Part shown: positions 149 through 48,400 of the stretch, piece after piece
Position numbering within the stretch: the first letter of the stretch is position 1
Layout: the number at the start of each line of letters is the position of its first letter
Source of the DNA: Yuukianura sp. NJ FZ-2021
Taxonomy: Eukaryota
Direction: 5' to 3'
Length of the DNA: 64,000 bases
Assembly (NCBI GenBank): GCA_046563655.1
Contig: CM102284.1
Span: 7,006,001-7,070,000 of the forward strand
Position numbers and translations under genes: made by a program
The notes under the pieces: generated by a model
Databases searched by the model: none
What the model was told of the DNA's origin: nothing
The model's input: only the letters and a program-made list of their open reading frames with translations

Positions 149-769
149 CAGTTAAAATTCTAAACTAATCCGAAAACTTCTGCTCGCAATGTTAAAATTT
201 TGTAAAATTCCTAGAGTTGCTAAATTAGTTAAGCGCACGAATCCAAACAAAAATTTCCTTTTTGAATAAAGTTTAAAAATTCGGTCGAAAAATTAAAATC
301 TTCTAAAAACACAGCCGAATTTTTTGAATACAGAAAGATATTCAAAAGCAATTAAAAAAATATGAAAATATCGACAATTGAAGTTACAAAAACTTCTACG
401 CCGCTTGAAAAATTAAAAATTTTAGATATGGTAACAAAGTATAAAATATATAGACTGAATATTTTTAAATTTCAACTGACGTCGAGGGAAATTAAAAAAA
501 AAATTATGATTTCTACAATAAAATTTGAAAATAAATTCACACAGTTTTTAGACATTATGCGAATAACGTTTTTTTATGTCCAACTTTTAAATAAGTGTAA
601 AAAATGACAGGTTGATGTTAATAGACAGAAGTAAAATTAAATCCACTGTTGAACATTAGAGACTCTTCCATATAACTTGCATTCAAAATTTGCAAAATTT
701 TGCAACAGAATTATGTGAATTTTCGAATTACTTAACTTTACTTAACCTAACCTTTTTGAATTAGAAAGA

Positions 770-1027
770 TTCTTTGGATCATTCTGAATTTTTTCGTGAA
801 AGAATTCGTAATTTATTGCAATCCATTCCTGAGATATGAATTTTGAAAGTTTTGTAATTTTATGAAATTTTGGAAAGAGATTTTCCAATGTGAAGTTGGA
901 GGCTCCTCTGAAAAAGTGACAGGAGCTATGCGGGTATTAGGCGAAGCAAGAAGGCTACCTTTCTCAGCTTTTTTTCCCGCTGGCGGCCTCCCCATACAAA
1001 AAGCACACAAGAGCAAAAGAGCTATCT
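770..1027. repeat. Copy A of a diverged direct duplication (continues at ~3056-3085 beyond the foldback insertion)
   Basis: Shares long blocks with ~3625-3910, e.g. ccattcctgagatatgaatttt, gaaattttggaaagagattttcca, gctatgcgg..attaggcga, tttttcccgc, cccatacaaaaa. Confidence 0.75.
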
Positions 1028-1130
1028 TATGGAGGGATTTTAGTAGCAAAACTAATTAAAGTTTCCCCCGCCAATTAACGTTTCCCCAATTAAAAAATTT
1101 AACTTTCGCCAATTTATTAATTGGCGAAAA

Positions 1131-1326
1131 TTTAAACGGCGAAAAGTTAATTGGGGGGATTTTAAACGGCGAAAAGTTAATTGGGGAAATTTTAAACGGC
1201 GAAAAGTTAATTGGGGGGAATTTAAACGGCGAAAAGTTAATTGGGGGGATTTTAAACGGCGAAAAGTTAATTGGGGGAATTTTAAACGGGGAGAAGTTAA
1301 TCGGCGAAACTTTAACCGGCGAAAAG
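1131..1326. repeat. 30-bp tandem array (two 15-bp subunits) in the left foldback arm
   Basis: Unit tttaaacggcgaaaagttaattggggggat, 5 near-identical copies plus 1 diverged copy and a partial one. Confidence 0.95.
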
Positions 1327-2780
1327 TGAGTGTTTCCCGTCAATAGATTTCTCCCCCCAATTGATTTGACAAAAATACTCAGGAGTGACACCGGGCACCT
1401 GTAATATATGGGCACCCAAATTATTTCATAATTATTTTAAACATTATATAAATTAAATTAAACTAATTTTAAAACTAATTAAAATCTCCAATTATTTTTA
1501 ATTAATATTTAGCACACTTAGTTTATCATTAATTAACTTATAATACATTAATGATAGAATTTAATGTTGCCCATGTATGATGTAGGCGTTGTGACATGGT
1601 AAATGACTTTTTCATTTACCATTTTGTTTTGAAATCATATAGAATCATACAAGTTCTCAGGTTTCAAACCGATTTAACCAATTTAAATTAAGTTTAAATT
1701 TCTAAGTTGAAGTCAGGTGCCTGGTCTAAAGAAAGTCATGTCAGTTGAAGCAACTGCTGCTGAGAGCATTTCTGGATACCAGTTTCTCAACACCCTAAAG
1801 GTCAGTGCATAATGAATTTGTAAAGGGCCCCATAATTTTCAATCGTGTTGAGCTTAACCAAAGTCAAACTTAATGCAGTATATTAATTAACTTTTCAGAG
1901 CAGCAAACTTGAATCATTATTTGAACGATCTCATTGCGTCTTTTCCAGACTGTCCCCGGATTGCTAATGCTGAGGAAAATGAACACTACCACATGTAGGA
2001 GGATGCGAGCTCACATCAGCCTGTGCGAGACACTGGCTCATTAATCGTCATTAATCATTAATCGTAAAATAGTTAACAAAAATAAATCCTCCCACATGTC
2101 GTAGTCTTCATTTTCCTCAGCATTAGCAATCCGGGGACAGTCTGGAAAAGACGCAATGAGATCGTTCAAATAATGATTCAAGTTTGCTGCTCTGAAAAGT
2201 TAATTAATATACTGCATTAAGTTTGACTTTGGTTAAGCTCAAGAACACGATTAAAAATTATGGGGCCCTTTACAAATTCATTATGCACTGACCTTTAGGG
2301 TGTTGAGAAAATGGTATCCAGAAATGCTCTCAGCAGCAGTTGCTTCAACTGACATGACTTTCTTTAGACCAGGCACCTGACTTCAACTTAGAAATTTAAA
2401 CTTAATTTAAATTGGTTAAATCGGTTTGAAACCTGAGAACTTGTATGATTCTATATGATTTCAAAACAAAATGGTAAATGAAAAAGTCATTTACCATGTC
2501 ACAACGCCTACATTATACATGGGCAACATTAAATTCAATCACTAATGTATTATAAGTTAATTAATGATAAACTAAGTGTGCTAAATATGAATTAAAAATA
2601 ATTGGAGATTTTAATTAGTTTTAAATTTAGTTTAATTTAATTTATATGTTTAAAATAAATATGAAATAATTTGGGTGCCCATATATTACAGGTGCCCGGT
2701 GTCACTCCTGAGTATTTTTGTCAAATCAATTGGGGGGAGAAATCTATTGACGGGAAACAAAAGCTTGCGGGAAGCACTCA

Positions 2781-2946
2781 CTTTTCGCCGGTTAAAGTTT
2801 CGCCGATTAACTTCTCCCCGTTTAAAATTCCCCCAATTAACTTTTCGCCGTTTAAAATCCCCCCAATTAACTTTTCGCCGTTTAAATTCCCCCCAATTAA
2901 CTTTTCGCCGTTTAAAATCCCCCCAATTAACTTTTCGCCGTTTAAA
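2781..2946. repeat. 30-bp tandem array (inverted) in the right foldback arm
   Basis: Unit atccccccaattaacttttcgccgtttaaa, one copy fewer than in the left arm. Confidence 0.95.
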
Positions 2947-3624
2947 TTTTCGCCAATTAATAAATTGGCGAAAGTTAAATTTTTTAATTGGGGAAACGTT
3001 AATTGGCGGGGGAAACTTTAATTAGTTTTGCTACTAAAATCCCTCCATACTATCTCGCCTCTTCGCTTCGTATAATATCCGATCTACTTTTCTGCTCTCC
3101 CAAAGGCCTCCCATGTAAAAGACTCTTCAAAAACTTGAACTTGGAGATCACGCTCATTTCCACAGCTAGTACTTTCTACGACTGAAGTCCACAGATAGTA
3201 CATCCCCCGAATCTCCTTTGCAAATATCCTTACACTTAATTTCGCATAAAAATTTGCAAACAATCTTACATTTAAAATGTTTCGAAATTTCGAAATAAAA
3301 AAACTGTATGTCTTTTCTTCCCTCTCGAACTATCTAATATACGTAATACACTTTAGAAATTTGCAAAACATGCTGGCAGCATTCGTTTGTTCCCGTTTTA
3401 CAAAATTTTAAAAATTTCAATCTTGCAGAGATTTCTGCGAATCCATCACTCGATTCAACTTGCAAAACTTCTTTTTGCATAGCGTGCTGCGAAAATTTTG
3501 CACACAACGCATCTACGCATCTTCAAAATTTTTAAGAAATCAAAAAAAAAATTCCTGGACTATAGTCCATGGCTTTTGTCAAAAATCAATCAAATTTTGG
3601 ATTGCAGTTTTTTGTGCTGAAAAT

Positions 3625-3910
3625 ATTCTAGAGATCATTCTGAATTTAGATGTGAAGAGATTAGGTTGATAACGCATTCCATTCCTGAGATATGAATTTT
3701 TTAAGATTTTGAATTTTCTGAAATTTTGGAAAGAGATTTTCCATTGAGATGATGGAGAGTCCTCTGAAAAAAGTGTCAGAAGCTATGCGGAGATTAGGCG
3801 ACCCAGAAAGGCTCCTCTCCTTTCTCAATTTTTTTCCCGCCTTCCCATACAAAAAAGCTAAAAAGCCAAAGAAGGGGAAGCCCTTTTTGCTTTGTAGAAT
3901 CCCCGATCTC
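3625..3910. repeat. Copy B (uninterrupted) of the diverged direct duplication
   Basis: Aligns by eye with 770-1027 joined to 3056-3085 (gccctttttgctttgtagaatccccgatct vs gcctcttcgcttcgtataatatccgatct). Confidence 0.75.
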
Positions 3911-4189: not shown

Positions 4190-4405
4190 CAACTTTTTGC
4201 TAAAATATTAGAATTTTCTTGAAAAAAAAATTCTATTTTCTGTTGTTACATCTTCACGCCGTCTAAAATTTTTCACTTATTCTCGTAGCTAATTTCTGCT
4301 TAACAACCATAGCGGAAAATAATTAATTTTTATGCGGCGTCTAAGTTGTAGCAATAAAAACTTTCCTTTCTTCTTTGAATTTCAAAATTAACAAAACCAA
4401 ATTAA
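4190..4405. repeat. Interspersed repeat fragment, copy 1
   Basis: Reverse-complement match to ~46738-46950 (cacgccgtctaaaa...attaatttttatgcggcgtctaagttgtagcaat...tctttgaatttcaaaatt...aaaaccaaatta). Confidence 0.7.
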
Positions 4406-4624: not shown

Positions 4625-7600
4625 TTAACTTGATGAGCAATTTAAAATAGAAGAAGCAACTGCCACTCCATTGCTAACTCCTCTCCAACAATCCGACGAC
4701 GCAACGTCTCTGCTTTGATACTGTTTCCGTGCAAAGGCGAGGAACACTTCCTCCAACGTTGTTTCACTGACGCTGTAGTCATCAATAACGTCTGCATGGA
4801 TCTTCTTGCATTCCTCTACGATGTCAAATATCGTGTTCCAGGGCATCTCCGTATTTTGAATTTGATATTGGAGTACATTCTGTTAAAATTCAAATCAAAA
4901 GTGAGTTTTCACAATCAAAAGGCATGAAATTTTTCAAAATTCAAGGGTTTAGGTCAAAGGTCAACCTGATGCTCGTCCTTGAGTTCACAGGGATGCAGTT
5001 TCTGGAGAATATCTTTTTTGAGTGCATAGGCTGCGGGGTCATCTGACTGCATGTCAGTCTTCAAGCGCAAAACTAAGCTAAATCCTTTGGCAAATTTCCG
5101 CTTCAAATGCTGCACTCCGCCGAGACATTGCAGCTGACCGTTGACCATGATTCCAAGTCTGGAGCAGAGAGCTTCACATTCCTCCATACTGAAATTCAAC
5201 AAAAAAATAGTTTAAAAATTGTAAAAATTTGAAAACATTAAAATTAAACAGAGATTTTATTCTCAAGTTTTTTTACGACAATTTTAGTACATTTTAACTC
5301 GTAATTTTATTCCGAGCGGCACACAAGCTAGATTTTGAAGCTAGGAGTCAGTTTTAAACTTTTTGTTTTTTAGAACAAGGCAACGAACTTCTAAAAAAAA
5401 GGTGAAACTGCGCATTACGTTTTGCTTTTACTCTTGCTTTCTCCCATCCCATTGATTTTCCAGGAAAAGTTTGTAGTCAAAAGTTGAAAACGCAGTGATT
5501 TCCAGTGTATTGCGAGGAATACAAGAGAAAGTGAAGGTGCTAAGTGATCAATCTGGTTGGATTTTATAATGGCAGGGGGTCTTCAATGTCAATTGCCCCC
5601 CTACTTCTTCCCAATCCCTCCACCGCCCCCGCTTCCAGAAGCACTTCTAGCTGTCGAACTGAGTCTAGTGGCCAAACTAAAGTCAATTCCTATTCCGCCT
5701 CCAGTGAGCTACATCTACTCTCCGCTGGACTACGCATTTGAACCACATGCTGACTATGTTCGGAAGTACGCTCAATCCAGAAAGAAAATACTGTTTCTCG
5801 GAATGAATCCAGGGTAAGAAAATTCCAAAAATTAAAATTTTTAACTTTTTAAAAAAAAAAACATATTCTGAATTTAGGCCGTGGGGAATGAGTCAGACGG
5901 GCGTTCCATTTGGGGAAGTAAGTTTGGTAAAGAATTGGCTCAAGGTCCAAGGTCGTGTCGGGCGTCCCCAAGTGGAACATCCGAGCAGAGTCGTGGAAGG
6001 ATGGGGCTGTCCAAGGAGTGAGGTCAGTGGTCAGCGATTCTGGAGCTACTGGAAGGACCTATGTGGCGATCCAGAACTTTTGTTTCACTACGCTTATGTA
6101 CACAACTACTGTCCCTTGGCTTTTATGAAGGTAACTGAGCTCAACCTTTCAGGAATTTTCTCTAAAGCTTCGAAATTTTAGTGTTCCTGTCTAAAAATTT
6201 AAAAATTTCTAGGATTCCGGTAGAAACGTAACTCCGCCAGAACTGAAAGCAAAAGAACGGAATCAAATTTTCTCGGCCTGTGACGAAGCCCTTCTCAAAG
6301 TAATTCAGCTCCTGACACCCGAAATTGTCATCGGAGTTGGAAAATTTCCTCAACAGCGAACACAACTCGTTTTGCAAGGCGCTGGAATCACCAACGTCCG
6401 AGTCGAATCCATTCTCCATCCAAGTCCAGTCAATCCCACTGCTAACAAAGGCTGGAGAGACGTTATTCATCGTCAATTAGGCGAAATGGGTGTCCTGCCC
6501 TACTTTTGTCGCCAAACTGACGTGTCGTAAAGCGACATCGCTGCGCAGTGCTTTAGGCACAACGATTCGTCCCGGTGCTTGCGCTCCGAGGAACAACTCA
6601 GAGATTTAAAATGCTCACGAAGTACAAAGACAATTTCGAACGAACTTTGTTGTTGGCCAAACCACTTTTGCCAAATTGACGGCTAAACCCCGCCCCTTTT
6701 CTAAAAAAGAAATCGGAGTTTTTAGAAAACTAGCTCAGTAACGAACTATCATTAATGCTAACTAGGACGAAGACTATGCCACGGTCTTCCAGTAAAATTT
6801 TATGGTTCAAACCCAAACTGATGAGATTTGAATCTCTTGTCAGGCCTTTTTGTTTTGAAAATCCCATTGGTGGAAATATTGAAATTAGGGAGTTCATTGA
6901 TAAATGTTACTTAAAATATAACTATTAAGGAGCTTTAATAAATAAAAATATGGTACCTTACCTATGTGAAGTGAGTATGACACATTGACCAGTTCCCTTG
7001 AGCGACGAAATTACTTCCCAAAATTGACGTCGTGCCACTGGATCGACGCCACTCGTAGCTAAAAAAAAAGAATCATAATGCATAAAAATCTAACATTCGA
7101 ATCCACAGTTAATAGTTTCCCATATTCCCATTGAACTTTCAAAGAAAATTCTGAAATATGTTTACAACTAAAATTAGAAAAGTATTGTTTGCGTTTCTTA
7201 CGTTCATCGAGTAGAACAATGGGTGGATCACCAATCTTCATTTCAAAAGAAAAACATTAACTAAGTACTTAGTTTGAAGTTGTTAAAAAAATTGGAAATC
7301 TTACCATGGCCATTCCAACACTTAGCCGACGTCGCATTCCACCGCTGTATTTTTCTGATTTAACGTTTCCGGCTTTGAGCAATCCAAGTTTATTGAGCCA
7401 TTTGTTCACTTCTGCGTCACGTTTTGCCGTAGGGACTCCACGCAGATTTGCAAACAGATTCAACATTTCACGTCCAGTCAGTACACCAATTGTCGCGTCA
7501 AACTGTGGACAGTAGCCAATGTTTGACAGAAAGTCTTTCCGGTTCGACTGGAGTGTTCGAAGGCAACCGTAGGCATTCTACAAAGTACAAAAAAAGAGGA

Positions 7601-21746: not shown

Positions 21747-24700
21747 CTAAATTTCTTTGAGGTACTTGAGTGGGACGTGACCCTGTTTGTTCTCTCCGTT
21801 CCGTATCATCACCATTCCATTGGACTCTTCGCCCATTTGGATCACAACCTAAGTTAAAAACATAAGTTATGTAAAGTTATGCTAAGGTTGACCTTTGACC
21901 TCGTACCTGGTCCCTTAGAAGCTTGAGTCCACTGTCAGCACCGTCCGTCACTTGCAGATTGTGCGTTACCTGAAGCACCTTCTCTCCTGATTGGAGTTTC
22001 GTCACGTATGTAGAGGGAAAGTAACCTTGACGACCGAGGCACTTGCCTTGCCACCAATCCGGGTCAGTCGTGTCTGTCACCGTGACCTTATACCCCGCCC
22101 TAAGGTGAAAGTCATTAAGTTAGGTGAGAGCACGCCATTGTTTCGAAAAGTTTGTTTCGAATGCGAATTGTTTCGAAAAATAATTCTTTCGAAACAGAAA
22201 TTGTTTAGGGTTTAAACCTTAAGATTAGGTTAATTTTGATTACATTGGTTAGGCTAGTTTAAGTTTAGGTTAATTACATTATTTTAGATTTAAGTTAGGT
22301 ACATAAAAATGAGCGTTTCGAAACAATTATTTTTCGAAACAATTCAATTCGAAACATTTGTATTCGAAGCAATGGCATGACACCGATGACCTTACTTGAG
22401 GTCCATTTCATCAGGATGTCTCGCCTTGAACATGTAGAGTACCACGTAGAGATTTGTTGGCAGGAGTCGATGGGGTTTCTACGTTCAAACAGAACAAAGT
22501 TTCAGCATTTAGAACAACCGTTTACAAGGAAAAGTAGAATGGAAAGTGCCTGGAGAGGGAACTTAGGTTACAGGCTGACCTAGGTCTGCCAGAGACTTCA
22601 AAGGGCCTTTGTGTGACAAGGAGTGACAGTAAACTGGCTTACGGGGGAAGGACATGGTGAAGTACTGGCAGAACTCAGGCTCTTGTCATTTTCATCCGGA
22701 AGTTCTACTGAGCTCATCCGAACGTTCCGAGCACTCAGCAGTGCTCTCCGATTGTGAACAGGGCTGGAAGGGGCTGAAAAACATTAAAAAAGAATGTCAG
22801 TTTTTACTAAAACTTTTACATTTCGTAATTTTAATAGAGGCAGAGAAAGTTCGAAAATTTAGAAATTTTTCATTAGCAAGAACACCAACGATCAAGTTTT
22901 TCACAAAAGATTGAAAATTAGCACTGAAATTGTAACAATCAACATCAAAAAAGTTTGGCAAGCTAAGAAGAAAGCAGCAAATAGTCAAAATCGGGGAAAT
23001 GCAAAGCAGCGACAGTCAAGCCAACGACTTTCTAAAAAACACTGCGGCGGCAGCACACTGACCACATTTTGGTATTTTTAAAACGTTTTTTAAAGTTAGA
23101 CTTGAGTACCAAAGTGATTGACAAATTGAGCAGTGGTGGGCGGAGGAACAAAGCGGAGGAGGGCACCGTCAATGGACCTGCGATTGCCCAAAGCGGCACT
23201 CGTCCTCCCCAGTAGAATGTCTCTCCAGTTGTAGTCTGCAAAAGACCCAAGACAAGGTCACCCCGTGTCAATTTCGGGTCAAAGGTCAACTATTGCTACA
23301 CCTTTAGGTCAAAGGGCAACTAGCTCAGACTAGAGAAGGAAAAGCTACGAAGAAAGGAAGAGAAAGTCAAAATCAAAATCTGAGAGAGAATCATGCTGGA
23401 ACGAAAGGAAACGATTTTGGAAAGCAAGAGAGAGATAGGACAGAGAAATAGGAGCCAAAATTTGAATTTTAGCAGAGAAAATGACTCCGAGTGACCTTTG
23501 ACCTTGTTTTTATCGTTCATTTTGATATTGCTCACTTCCAGTAGGATTTTGAAAACTTTCTCTCACTGGAAATATTGAAACTAAAAGTTTCTGATGCTTC
23601 ATTTCTGTGCAATGCTAAATTTTGCAAATTGTATGAGTTGGGTTGAGGTCAAAGGTCAAAGGTCACTTGAGGTCATTGTGAATAGAAGGTAAATCCGTTA
23701 CATTGACTGTGGGAGGTTGATTGACTTCCGTGGGCATATCGCCTTCTGTTGGCATGTTCTGTTGACTCGGGAGAGTCCAGTGAAAAGCTTTTCATCCTTA
23801 GATCCAACTTCCGCCGTCTAGGACTGTGCGGGGCTACAAAGGAGGTCAAAGTTCAAAAAACACTAGAGTAAAAAACTAATGTAAAAATGACTGTAAAACA
23901 CTCTGTTATTTAATCAGAGGTCAAAGGGCAGAGAGGCAGAGAGGTCAACACACTCAAACAAGTGTTAATTAGCTTCTCCAAAGTGTTTAATTAGTCATGC
24001 ACTTCTCAAAATTTGCCTAACAAAAAGGGTTAAATTAGCATTTGCGTTTCTACTCAAAATTTTTAGACCTGTTTGTACTTAGCAAGGAAATTTTACAGCA
24101 AACAACTTGTCTCGAGGAAATTTTCGGCAAACAATTTCCTTCAAGAAAATTTTTCAACAAAAATTTTGTCTTTGGAAAACTTTTCAGCATAAATTTTGTC
24201 CCTGGCAAACTTTTCAGCAAAAATTTTTTGTTGGGAAAACTTTTCAGCAAAAATTTTGTTGCAGGAAAACGTTTCAGCATAATTTTGTTAAGTGCTGCAT
24301 TGTCCTTAGACTTTCGTGTGTTAGTTGCTTTCTATGAGGTTTACATTTGTTAAAATTAAAAATTTTGAAAATTGTAAAAACATTTTTGAAAAAGTGTTTC
24401 GAACAAGTACTGCGGGCAGTACTTTGTGTAGAGGGTAGTGAGATGGCCCTTGGCGGGGGCAACAGAACCAGAGACTGTCCATCAGCATCTGCTGACACGC
24501 TCTTCTTGCTTACGTAACTATCTCTCCGTTGTCCTAGGTAATATGAGGTCAGAGGTCAAAACGTGCTTCAATTACATTATTATATATTATATAACAAGTT
24601 ATTTCGGTATAATAACTCATTATTTAACAATCCTAATCTTCCCTTGGCCAAAACCCTCCAGAGATCCCATCAAAACCAAAAGTTAATTTCCTAGAAATCA

Positions 24701-45407: not shown

Positions 45408-48400
45408 ATGCTTTGTGTCACGAAGATTGGAGAGTGGCTGGAGATTGTTCTGTTGACTACGGTTGTTACGCGGGTGCTTGGTGACCCACGCCCTGTCATG
45501 TCATTTCCCGAATCCGGTGTTTACTCTCTCTTTCCACATGAGGACTTAAGGACCGGAAAATCAATTCGGCCTGTTCCTGACACAGGCATCTCAAGTACCC
45601 GTAGAGGAGACTTTTTGAGTAGCAGCAGTACAGACTTTGGCAGAAGACGCGCTGGGCGTGTCATTTTTGATGATGAAAGACTCAATTATCGTAGAGGGCA
45701 TTTTGATTCCAGAGAACGAAATGTGCCTGGAAGTCCAGAAAGAGTGGTATACCTCAGTAGGGAAGAACATAGTAGACGATTTCCAGTGGCTCCAGCGTTT
45801 CCCGTTCCAGCCTACAGCCAATCCCGTCTTCCAGCAAATTCTGCTGGAATTGACGAAGAACCACCCAAAATTCATGTTTTTTCGTCAGAGAAACAGCGTC
45901 CCTTGGAAATTCCACGTCCGGATCCAATTGACGCTTATGAAGAAGTGAGACCTGGAAGACTTTTTATTCCAGGACTGAATCGTGGCGAGCCGTTTCTGGA
46001 CTTACGAGATCCTCCAACGGATAATTTCATTAATCATGACGATTACCTTGACTACCACAGGAAAGCGGCCTTTTCAGTACTCCAGTCCCTCGGAACAAGT
46101 AGAGAGAGACGTCCAAGTGAATCGTCAGAAGCAAAGCGTTTGCTATTTACATCGCAGATTCATGGCCTAATCCCTCCGTCTTCTCAGTTTTCTCCGTCTG
46201 GCCCAACTTCATCTGGAGAAAGTACAAGTAAAAGTACTGAAACGACGGAGTCAGAGGGAGACTTTGGCAACAAGATTCCAATTTCAGTACTGCTGGACAA
46301 CAGTACTCCGCGAATTGAGAGTATCAACAAACCCGTACTGGAATCCGGGTTCATTCCGATTTATCCCAACTATGAACATGGAGCTGGACCGGGACAGCAG
46401 CAGCATCAGCGTCCGAGGATGCCAAAAGGTAATGCTTGGTCTTTTTTCACACAAGATTTTTTGCTCACAGCGATTTTTCACCACTTTTTCTTTGTTATGT
46501 CCAGAACAAAAGGATTCGTGATCTGAAATATAAATAGGAAAAAAATGTGTGAGAGACAATAGGATTTCGGTTTTTTTTTGAAAGCTTAAAAAAACATTTG
46601 TCTCAATCCCCTTTACCAAATGGGGCAATTCCTTTTTGCACTAAAATATTTCACGAAGTTAATTTTTTACTTTCAGTAAATGTTTTCCTTGTAACTTTTT
46701 AGCGGAAGAGTTTTACTTTCAGTTACTTTAACCTAACCTAATTTGGTTTTATTAAAATTTTGAAATTCAAAGAAACAGAGGTTTCATTGCTATAACTCAG
46801 ACGCCGCATAAAAATTAATTTTTTTCCTCCAAAGTATTTAAGCAGAAAAATGCTACACAAATGTGAAAAATCTTTTAGACGGCGTAAAGAAGTAGCAGCA
46901 GAAAAAAAAATTTCATGAAAATTTCGTTGTTCTACGACAAACCGGACGTTAGTTTTTTTCACAAAAATGTTTAGCGGAAAATTTTTACTTTCATTGAATT
47001 TCTTCTTTACAATTTTTTTTTAAAAAAAAAATTCCACTTCATTAATTTTTTTTCTATACATTTCAATTTTTTTTAGCCGAAAATTTTTACTTTCGTTAAT
47101 TTTTTTTACCCTAAAATTTTTCTTGCTGAAAATTTTTTCTTTCAGTTTTCCTGTATCATTTTCTTAGCGGAGAATATTTACTTTCAGTAAGTTTTCTCCT
47201 TAAGATTTTTTTAGCGGAGAATTTTAGTTAAAATGTTTTCGCACAATTTTTTTGCTGAAAATTTTTAGTTTCGCCCCCTGCAAATGGCGCCCATAGCAAC
47301 CAACGCAATTTTTTGTTTGTGACGTCACCAGCTGAAAAATACCGTAATCGTGAAATTGGAACCCGCTGGCATTTATGTAAACAAGATGTGTCTTACGGGT
47401 TTCTATAGGACACCACCAATAATTGGCAGAATTCCGGTATTTTCAGCTGGTGACGTCATTTTTTTTTCCACATGGCAACCAAACAAACTTTCCATTCGCA
47501 CTACCTAGGAGTATTCTATTTACCTTGGTTTCAGCAGGGGGCGGCAAAAATGCCTTAGCGACCAAAACCGATTCTTTATTTGTTTACAATTTCACTCACA
47601 GTGACGTCACTCCGAGTGAAAATACAGGTTCATCCGAGTTTTTAAGCTATTTTTAAGTTTGCGGCGAAAGTATTGAGACTAAAATGCTGAAAATTTTGAA
47701 CAACACTGTAAATGAGTGAACTCGGAGTCAAAGAAATCCCATAGCAACTCAGTTTTGAAAAAACAATTTTCAACAACCGTACCTATAAGTATTCTATTTA
47801 TTTACCTTGGGTTTCAGTATAGTTTTTCCTTACAGTTTTTTAGCGAAATGTTTTTCCTTTCAGTAAGTTTTTCCTTTAAAATTTTTCTTGCGGAAAATTT
47901 TTTATTGCACAAAATTTTGTCTTGCAGAAAAAACAAGTCCATCCATAGGAGATCCATTCCAATTCTTTTGACTTAATCGTTTCGTAACCTTGGACCTAAT
48001 TTCAAAGGCAAACGAATTAAAAATCGTGTGCTTTTTTTCGTTTTGCACGAAACTTTGAAACAAAAACGCATATTCTATTGTAATCGTTTTTCCTCCCTCG
48101 CCGTATTCCCCACTCCTCATAATCGATTAGATCTCTAAAAGTGTTGTGTTACCTGTGCAAAGTTTTTTTATGTCCAAAACGTAGGGCGTCCACAAAGTAT
48201 GTTTTCCTGACGGAAGTGCTTTTCATTTCTTTTGTGTATAAAAGTCAAAGTGTGTGTAGTAATTAGTTTTTCTTTGGTTCATTTTCATGCTTGACTGCGG
48301 AGTAGCTGAAGGGGAACTGCTGTCAAGGCCAGTACCAACTTCCCCTAAAACAATACTGCTCCAAGGGGTTCCTGTCGTGGAGACATCAACGGAAGTCGCT

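What the first reader, a model, noticed from the sequence alone, without database searches (positions are those of the whole stretch)
1022..3055. 2-kb foldback transposon that is about 96% palindrome, with a 6-bp TSD and TATGG...CCATA ends
Seen: arms 1028-~2004 and ~2086-3049 are reverse complements separated by only ~80 bp, flanked by a perfect CTATCT duplication, with no transposase. Established (from recall): classic Foldback elements make 9-bp TSDs and Galileo 7-bp, whereas TAY...RTA termini with 6-bp TSDs are the described signature of the IS3EU superfamily. Inference: this may be a foldback-type non-autonomous derivative of IS3EU, a combination I do not recognise as described. It could extrude a ~1-kb cruciform or, if transcribed, yield a long hairpin RNA.
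Basis: partly seen in the sequence, partly recalled or inferred. Interest (0 to 1): 0.8.

Follow-up and report, generated by a model that had tools for sequence, protein, structure and literature searches.

The report
Foldback-shaped IS3EU transposon derivative
This 2-kb near-perfect DNA palindrome is a real, geneless copy of an IS3EU-type jumping gene whose two arms have been copied from each other, a shape already known from other transposon groups but one I could not find described for this group.

Summary
In detail: a 2022-bp element with arms of 977/964 bp (98.8% identical), an 81-bp spacer, an exact CTATCT duplication and no transposase. It is one of a dispersed family: 37 ends, and an exact 6-bp duplication at 13 of 17 two-ended copies. 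The genome holds two sister families with TATGG ends and 6-bp duplications. One is 8.5 kb and encodes an integrase-type DDE transposase; it shares a companion ORF with the longest, transposase-less copy of this family. IS3EU/GingerRoot is therefore well supported, although this family's own transposase was not found. All three families have produced long palindromes with unrelated inner arms, up to 15 kb. Arms within a copy are more alike than copies are to each other (1.0% vs 6.4%). This fits the TIR-extension process described for Galileo. A cruciform is unlikely across an 81-bp spacer, and hairpin RNA is untested. Earlier scan notes already reported the two sister families and other foldbacks in this genome. 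Verdict: new variant of a known kind.

The parts
1022..1027 (.). left target-site duplication CTATCT
   Evidence: empty form with a single CTATCT implied by loose ends at 1027
1028..2004 (+). left arm, 977 bp (true TIR of about 330 bp plus recruited inner sequence)
1028..1116 (+). outer tip, TATGG start, shared by all family copies; probable transposase cleavage/binding end (inference)
1117..1327 (+). subterminal array, 7 x 30 bp; probable secondary transposase binding sites (inference from Galileo)
1482..1629 (+). inner-arm piece 80% identical to positions 140-283 of the family's 11.3-kb copy
1706..1866 (+). inner-arm piece 75% identical to positions 980-1153 of the 11.3-kb copy, downstream of its zinc-knuckle ORF fragment; degraded, no intact frame
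2005..2085 (.). 81-bp unpaired spacer; the arm/spacer boundary differs between sister copies
2086..3049 (-). right arm, 964 bp, reverse complement of the left arm
2780..2960 (-). subterminal array, 6 x 30 bp
3050..3055 (.). right target-site duplication CTATCT
765..1021 (.). high-copy host repeat that received the insertion; 77% paralogue of 765-1002 at 3621-3855
   Evidence: (summed depth up to 41,000 in X1 against a few hundred upstream)

Best explanation
A non-autonomous DNA transposon of the IS3EU/GingerRoot group (here 'family C'). SHOWN: it was inserted by an enzyme that leaves a 6-bp duplication; it has no gene; its arms consist of the family TIR plus interior sequence present twice in inverted orientation. 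INFERRED: it descends from a longer family-C element by internal deletion. One end was then copied onto the other beyond the TIR boundary (repair or replication that switches template to the other arm of the same molecule), giving TIR-X-spacer-X'-TIR. The same arm-to-arm copying recurs and keeps the arms alike while copies drift apart. It is moved in trans by an integrase-type DDE transposase that recognises the TATGG tip and probably the 30-bp array. That enzyme is most likely family C's own, absent from this assembly; cross-mobilisation by family A is the alternative. The element is selfish DNA with no shown host function. Odds: IS3EU-type membership about 0.9; arm-to-arm copying as the origin of the palindrome about 0.8; in-cis fold-back as its main route about 0.55.
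For: Exact 6-bp TSD at 13 of 17 family C, 4 of 7 family A and 7 of 7 family B two-ended copies, never longer. Published IS3EU signature: TA..TA with 6-bp TSD and TAYGG..CCRTA. Family A (8481 and 8567 bp, TIRs about 530-580 bp) encodes PF24764 rva_4 at E 5e-30. An ORF piece of family C's 11.3-kb copy has 3 matches in the genome: itself and the two family A elements (46-47% identity). A and C tips share 13 of the first 16 bases. Family B carries an alpha-kinase, as fungal IS3EU do. Arm divergence within vs between copies: C1 1.0% (n=6) vs 6.4% (n=60), with 38 copy-private substitutions in both arms vs 20 in one; C2 0.5% vs 1.8%; B1 1.4% vs 4.8%. Among perfect-TSD copies, tips differ by 0.8 bases per 60 in 18 short-spacer copies and 3.5 in 6 long-spacer copies, P=0.001. 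Galileo precedent TIR1-F1-F1-TIR2.
Against: No family C transposase was found: 5 rva_4 matches lie in family A (4) and family B (1), and a second search returned only the two family A copies; these searches give lower bounds. No comparison with Repbase IS3EU sequences was possible. The window copy's own arms differ by 1.7%, as much as it differs from its nearest sister (1.0-1.7%), so it shows no recent homogenisation; only 4 of 6 C1 copies have their two arms paired in the tree. In C2 and B1 the both-arm vs one-arm counts are near even (10 vs 10, 19 vs 16). The spacer-length test was grouped after seeing the data, and copies are related. Direction is unresolved: sister copies could have lost arm length by deletion rather than this one gaining it.
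Confidence: 0.8

Rival explanations
1. Same IS3EU element, but the arms are reset during transposition itself (a single-stranded or gapped intermediate folds back and one arm templates the other), so arm divergence would date the insertion as LTR pairs do.
For: Most perfect-TSD foldbacks have arms 98-100% identical, while three family C copies with imperfect TSDs have about 90-91%. Homogenisation is strongest when arms are close together.
Against: The like-for-like test of perfect vs imperfect TSD copies was not significant (1.1 vs 3.7 tip substitutions, n=20 and 7, P=0.11). Full-length family A elements with perfect TSDs keep TIRs about 8% different, homogenised only in the inner tract, so resetting is not obligatory.
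Confidence: 0.25
2. The locus acts as a hairpin-RNA source: read-through from a flanking gene gives about 1 kb of double-stranded RNA that silences family C or captured sequence.
For: The element lies between convergent genes: a + strand ORF ends at window 148 with a Forkhead-domain exon further upstream, and an ABCA-type gene ends near 4625 on the - strand. A full transcript would pair 1920 of 2022 bases at -1614 kcal/mol, which is trivial for any such palindrome.
Against: No expression evidence was obtained. The element lies about 0.9 kb and 1.6 kb beyond the nearest predicted coding ends, inside a high-copy repeat, and looks like a young insertion.
Confidence: 0.1
3. A non-autonomous derivative of another group with 6-bp TSDs and long TIRs (Polinton/Maverick) or of an unrecognised superfamily.
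For: Polintons make 6-bp TSDs and their inverted repeats can expand. The family's own transposase is missing.
Against: Ends are TA..TA, not the AG..CT I recall for Polintons (recalled, no call). The 11.3-kb copy links to family A, which has an rva_4 transposase.
Confidence: 0.05
4. Assembly artefact (fold-back chimeric read).
For: No public contig listed bridged the left junction.
Against: Arms differ by 11 substitutions and 4 indels; the TSD is exact; sister copies at five other loci have their own flanks; the empty-site form matches both flanks.
Confidence: 0.01

Closest known systems
IS3EU/GingerRoot DNA transposons (Kojima and Bao, PMC10045372; PMC12730594; Cerbin et al., PMC6839031; passages read)
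   Same: TA..TA ends, TAYGG..CCRTA in fungal families, 6-bp TSD, integrase-like DDE transposase in full-length members, passenger genes (alpha-kinase), gene fragments in defective copies.
   Different: Published TIR lengths that I saw are over 30 bp (rust fungi) and 100-150 bp (GingerRoot). Here full-length elements have TIRs of about 520-590 bp with tandem arrays, and derivatives have arms of 0.6-7 kb.
Galileo 2-TIR and 'extended/recombinant TIR' (2RT) copies, P superfamily, Drosophila mojavensis (Marzo et al., PMC3573991; Discussion read)
   Same: 1.7-2.2-kb geneless copies made almost wholly of TIR, tandem repeats inside the TIR varying between arms, recruitment of interior sequence into the arms, conversion between TIRs, solo ends and chimeras.
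   Different: Different superfamily and transposase. Here the recruited sequence includes unrelated host repeats and a satellite.
Drosophila Foldback and Tetris (Dias et al., PMC4079207; passages read)
   Same: Long modular arms with internal tandem repeats, variable middle, no ORF, link to satellite DNA (compare the 15.3-kb family A copy).
   Different: Tetris has 8-10-bp TSDs and is assigned to Mutator; this family has 6-bp TSDs.

Membership tests
IS3EU/GingerRoot | TA..TA termini (TAYGG..CCRTA in described fungal families) | tested here: met
IS3EU/GingerRoot | 6-bp target-site duplication | tested here: met
   13 of 17 family C two-ended copies exact, none longer; 2 more with 1-2 mismatches; 2 without
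IS3EU/GingerRoot | terminal inverted repeats | tested here: met
   much longer than published lengths
IS3EU/GingerRoot | autonomous partner with an integrase-like DDE transposase | tested here: inconclusive
   present in sister family A, absent from family C's longest copy; linked through a shared companion ORF. Equating PF24764 with the IS3EU transposase is my recall.
IS3EU/GingerRoot | transposase groups with Repbase IS3EU families in a tree | not testable with these tools
Foldback structural type | long arms with internal tandem repeats, short variable middle, no coding capacity | tested here: met
Foldback/Tetris (Mutator-type) | 8-10-bp TSD | tested here: not met
   no duplication of 7-12 bp at any of 31 copies
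MITE | usually under 600 bp and very high copy number | tested here: not met
   2022 bp; 37 exact-pattern ends; criterion
Polinton/Maverick | AG..CT termini (recalled) | tested here: not met
   TATGG..CCATA
Polinton/Maverick | protein-primed polymerase and capsid genes in long copies | not tested
   no family search was run; only ORF lists and a partial Pfam scan of the long copies

The most novel reading that the evidence does not exclude
In this animal, IS3EU transposons act as a palindrome factory. Three families repeatedly turn whatever lies next to one TIR (their own interior, other repeats, a 59-bp satellite) into mobile palindromes of 1.5-15 kb. The arms are reset by fold-back copying tied to the IS3EU transposition intermediate. 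That would be a clue to the little-studied IS3EU mechanism, an LTR-like clock for a DNA transposon, and a mobile source of hairpin RNA against captured sequences.
Probability: 0.15. Interest if true: 0.7.

Novelty: new variant of a known kind. Interest (0 to 1): 0.42.

Why it matters
It extends the foldback architecture to IS3EU/GingerRoot, supporting the view that foldback is a convergent shape rather than a family. The genome offers a compact system: three families, full-length parents and many independent palindromic derivatives, in which arm extension and homogenisation can be measured. Long mobile palindromes are also candidate sources of rearrangements and double-stranded RNA. The single locus on its own is an ordinary young insertion into a repeat.

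Tried and rejected
Search for a family C transposase: PF24764, family A transposase exon as query, and tblastn of family A ORFs against the 11.3-kb copy and 20-kb or 10-kb stretches beside unpaired ends found none. The unpaired end at C3:9590371 was fetched but only compared with family A at DNA level. The DDE gene inside the 11.3-kb copy lies within its own 91-bp inverted repeats and looks Tc1/mariner-like (recalled motif); I rejected it as a nested insertion. HECT label for the companion ORF: Pfam on three exon pieces gave 0 hits, a PF00632 genome search did not list these loci among 54 matches, and PDB gave 0. The only support is an Atlas hit at 0.90 to a G2E3-like cluster with HECT in 15% of members, so the label is a lead. 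Expression: no RNA holder listed, which is no evidence either way. Runs X5 and X6 held small shares; not used for range. Empty site: loose ends at 1027 continue as the right flank in 8, 7, 6 and 3 contigs of 4 of 4 runs (at most 2 samples). The flank is a high-copy repeat, so this confirms the TSD but not polymorphism at this locus. TSD decay vs arm divergence: P=0.11. The RSK-carrying foldback of note e1-7393099 was not found in the stretch I fetched; my placement may be off. Literature: IS3EU+foldback 1 paper, IS3EU+'long TIRs' 1, IS3EU+palindrom 3. The passages read in PMC8268682, PMC5844308 and PMC12730594 do not describe the combination; PMC9587614 was seen as a listing only. The Collembola/foldback search listed nothing relevant. 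No supplements were read; Repbase entries for non-autonomous IS3EU families may already record long-TIR forms.

Full report
Observation. The element occupies 1028-3049 (2022 bp), starts TATGG, ends CCATA and is flanked by CTATCT on both sides. The arms are 977 and 964 bp, 98.8% identical over 944 aligned bases with four indels, and enclose an 81-bp spacer; 96.0% of the element is arm. Each arm has an 89-bp tip, a 30-bp tandem array (7 and 6 units) and about 650 bp of non-repetitive inner sequence. No transposase frame exists.

Family. The window lies at G000:C2:7006001-7070000 of a 98.7-Mb genome. An exact 20-base tip pattern occurs 37 times, against 0 for the reversed control. I examined 17 two-ended copies: 13 have an exact 6-bp duplication, 2 have one or two mismatches and 2 have none; no copy has a longer duplication. 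One of the 13 is a run of A. Unpaired ends and one composite lacking its inner right tip were left out of this count. Contigs from 4 of 4 public runs laid (at most 2 samples) stop at 1027 and continue with the right-flank sequence, which is the empty form with a single CTATCT. The flank is a high-copy repeat, so these are probably paralogues, and the filled junction was not among the listed pieces.

Superfamily. Kojima and Bao give IS3EU as TA..TA with usually 6-bp TSDs (PMC10045372, passages); rust-fungus IS3EU end in TAYGG..CCRTA and carry an alpha-kinase (PMC12730594, passages). A PF24764 search found 5 matches. Four fall in two elements of 8481 and 8567 bp with TATGG ends, TIRs of about 530-580 bp and exact 6-bp TSDs (family A). 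One weak match falls in an 8165-bp element with TATGG ends and an alpha-kinase (family B). The longest copy of the window's family (family C) is 11,293 bp. It has zinc-knuckle fragments, nested insertions and two pieces of an ORF that is continuous in family A, but no rva_4 transposase. The larger piece matches only itself and the two family A elements in the genome. A and C tips share 13 of 16 bases, while their arrays differ in sequence. Family C is therefore IS3EU-type by ends, TSD and shared cargo, and its own transposase was not found. Earlier notes call the companion ORF a HECT ligase; my tests left that as a lead.

The palindrome is the rule, not a one-off. Of 13 two-ended family C copies over 1.5 kb, 11 have arms of about 570-1220 bp at 96-99.7% identity, one of them once a nested 1.6-kb insertion is set aside; one more is a degraded case and the last is the 11.3-kb copy. 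Family C has three unrelated inner arms. C1 (window type) contains pieces 75-80% identical to the left interior of the 11.3-kb copy and is otherwise confined to the family, plus one locus I did not examine. C2 contains a dispersed host repeat with about 40 other loci. C3 has its own short tandem motif. In family B, 5 of 6 shorter two-ended copies are 90-99% palindrome, with two inner-arm types. In family A, 3 of 5 have extended arms. One keeps the start of the companion ORF in its spacer, and another is a 15.3-kb palindrome of a 59-bp satellite with an exact 6-bp TSD.

How the arms arise. In C1, arms within a copy differ by 1.0% on average (n=6) and copies differ by 6.4% (n=60 pairs); 38 copy-private substitutions are in both arms and 20 in one; the two arms pair in the tree for 4 of 6 copies. 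C2 (0.5% vs 1.8%) and B1 (1.4% vs 4.8%) show the same direction, with near-even private counts. The window copy is a weak case: its arms differ by 1.7%, like its distance from its nearest sister. In full-length family A elements the inner part of each TIR pair is homogenised while the outer part keeps side-specific marks. Sequence that is arm in the window copy is spacer in sister copies, so the boundary moves, in a direction I cannot fix. Tips are more alike when the spacer is short (0.8 vs 3.5 differences per 60 bases; 18 and 6 copies; P=0.001), but the groups were drawn after seeing the data and copies are related. The simplest reading is repeated copying of one arm onto the other past the TIR boundary, favoured by proximity. 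Marzo et al. propose this for Galileo, yielding TIR1-F1-F1-TIR2 (PMC3573991, Discussion read). Template switching is known to homogenise short inverted-repeat arms (PMC8604942, abstract). Whether the copying is tied to transposition is open (P=0.11 in the TSD-decay test).

Consequences. A review reports that cruciforms extrude from the centre and that a 52-bp spacer removed fork stalling in eukaryotic cells (PMC7999016, passages); a 1-kb cruciform across 81 bp is therefore unlikely (inference). A transcript would fold into a long hairpin, and the element lies between convergent genes, a Forkhead-domain locus and an ABCA-type gene, but I obtained no expression data. Styx, an IS3EU-related element, is associated with rearrangements in a fungus (PMC10853768, passages); here unpaired ends and one composite copy hint at rearrangement, which I did not trace.

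Comparison and novelty. It works like a Galileo 2-TIR/2RT copy or a Foldback element, but it is not a Mutator-type foldback (6-bp, not 8-10-bp TSD; PMC4079207, passages). Its TIRs far exceed GingerRoot's 100-150 bp (PMC6839031, passages). Three searches pairing IS3EU with foldback, long TIRs or palindrome gave no description; Repbase, subscription journals and supplements were not seen. I found families A and B before consulting earlier notes, which agree on both and call the organism a springtail (not tested here). Verdict: real, IS3EU-type, new variant of a known kind; interest 0.42.

Noticed in passing
G000:C8:10724521-10739821 (L074, L075): 15.3-kb family A copy with exact 6-bp TSD whose interior is two opposed arrays of a 59-bp satellite (about 122 and 108 units) meeting across about 3 bp: a mobile giant palindrome and possible satellite seed, as proposed for Tetris.
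   Followed up: partly
G000:C3:7047822-7051854 (L037): Composite: a C2-type copy lacking its right tip is joined directly to a C1-type copy, and no TSD matches; suggests nested insertion with deletion or recombination.
   Followed up: partly
G000:C3:7174557, element positions 1275-2895 (L046): 1621-bp nested element with CCCAAGTAGC ends and a 2-bp CG duplication, EnSpm/CACTA-like by recall.
   Followed up: no
G000:C4:11549827-11561119 (L031, L032): 11.3-kb family C copy: companion ORF split by about 9 kb of other DNA, including a 2-kb Tc1/mariner-like element with 91-bp inverted repeats and a DDE_1 fragment.
   Followed up: partly
   Followed up: no
G000:C4:10165916 and C4:10221217 (L042, L049): Two right ends share the same flank 55 kb apart: a segmental duplication or assembly duplicate of one insertion.
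   Followed up: no
G000:C7:4604395-4604989: Degraded inverted pair matching the C1 inner arm at 74-81%, not picked up by the tip searches.
   Followed up: no
window 5548-6530: A uracil-DNA-glycosylase-family (SMUG1-like by recall) gene on the + strand lies between exons of the - strand ABCA-type gene.
   Followed up: no
window 24088-24288 and 47065-47141: Other 30-bp and 17/33-bp degenerate tandem arrays; 4228-4362 has a 79% inverted copy at 46779-46913.
   Followed up: no
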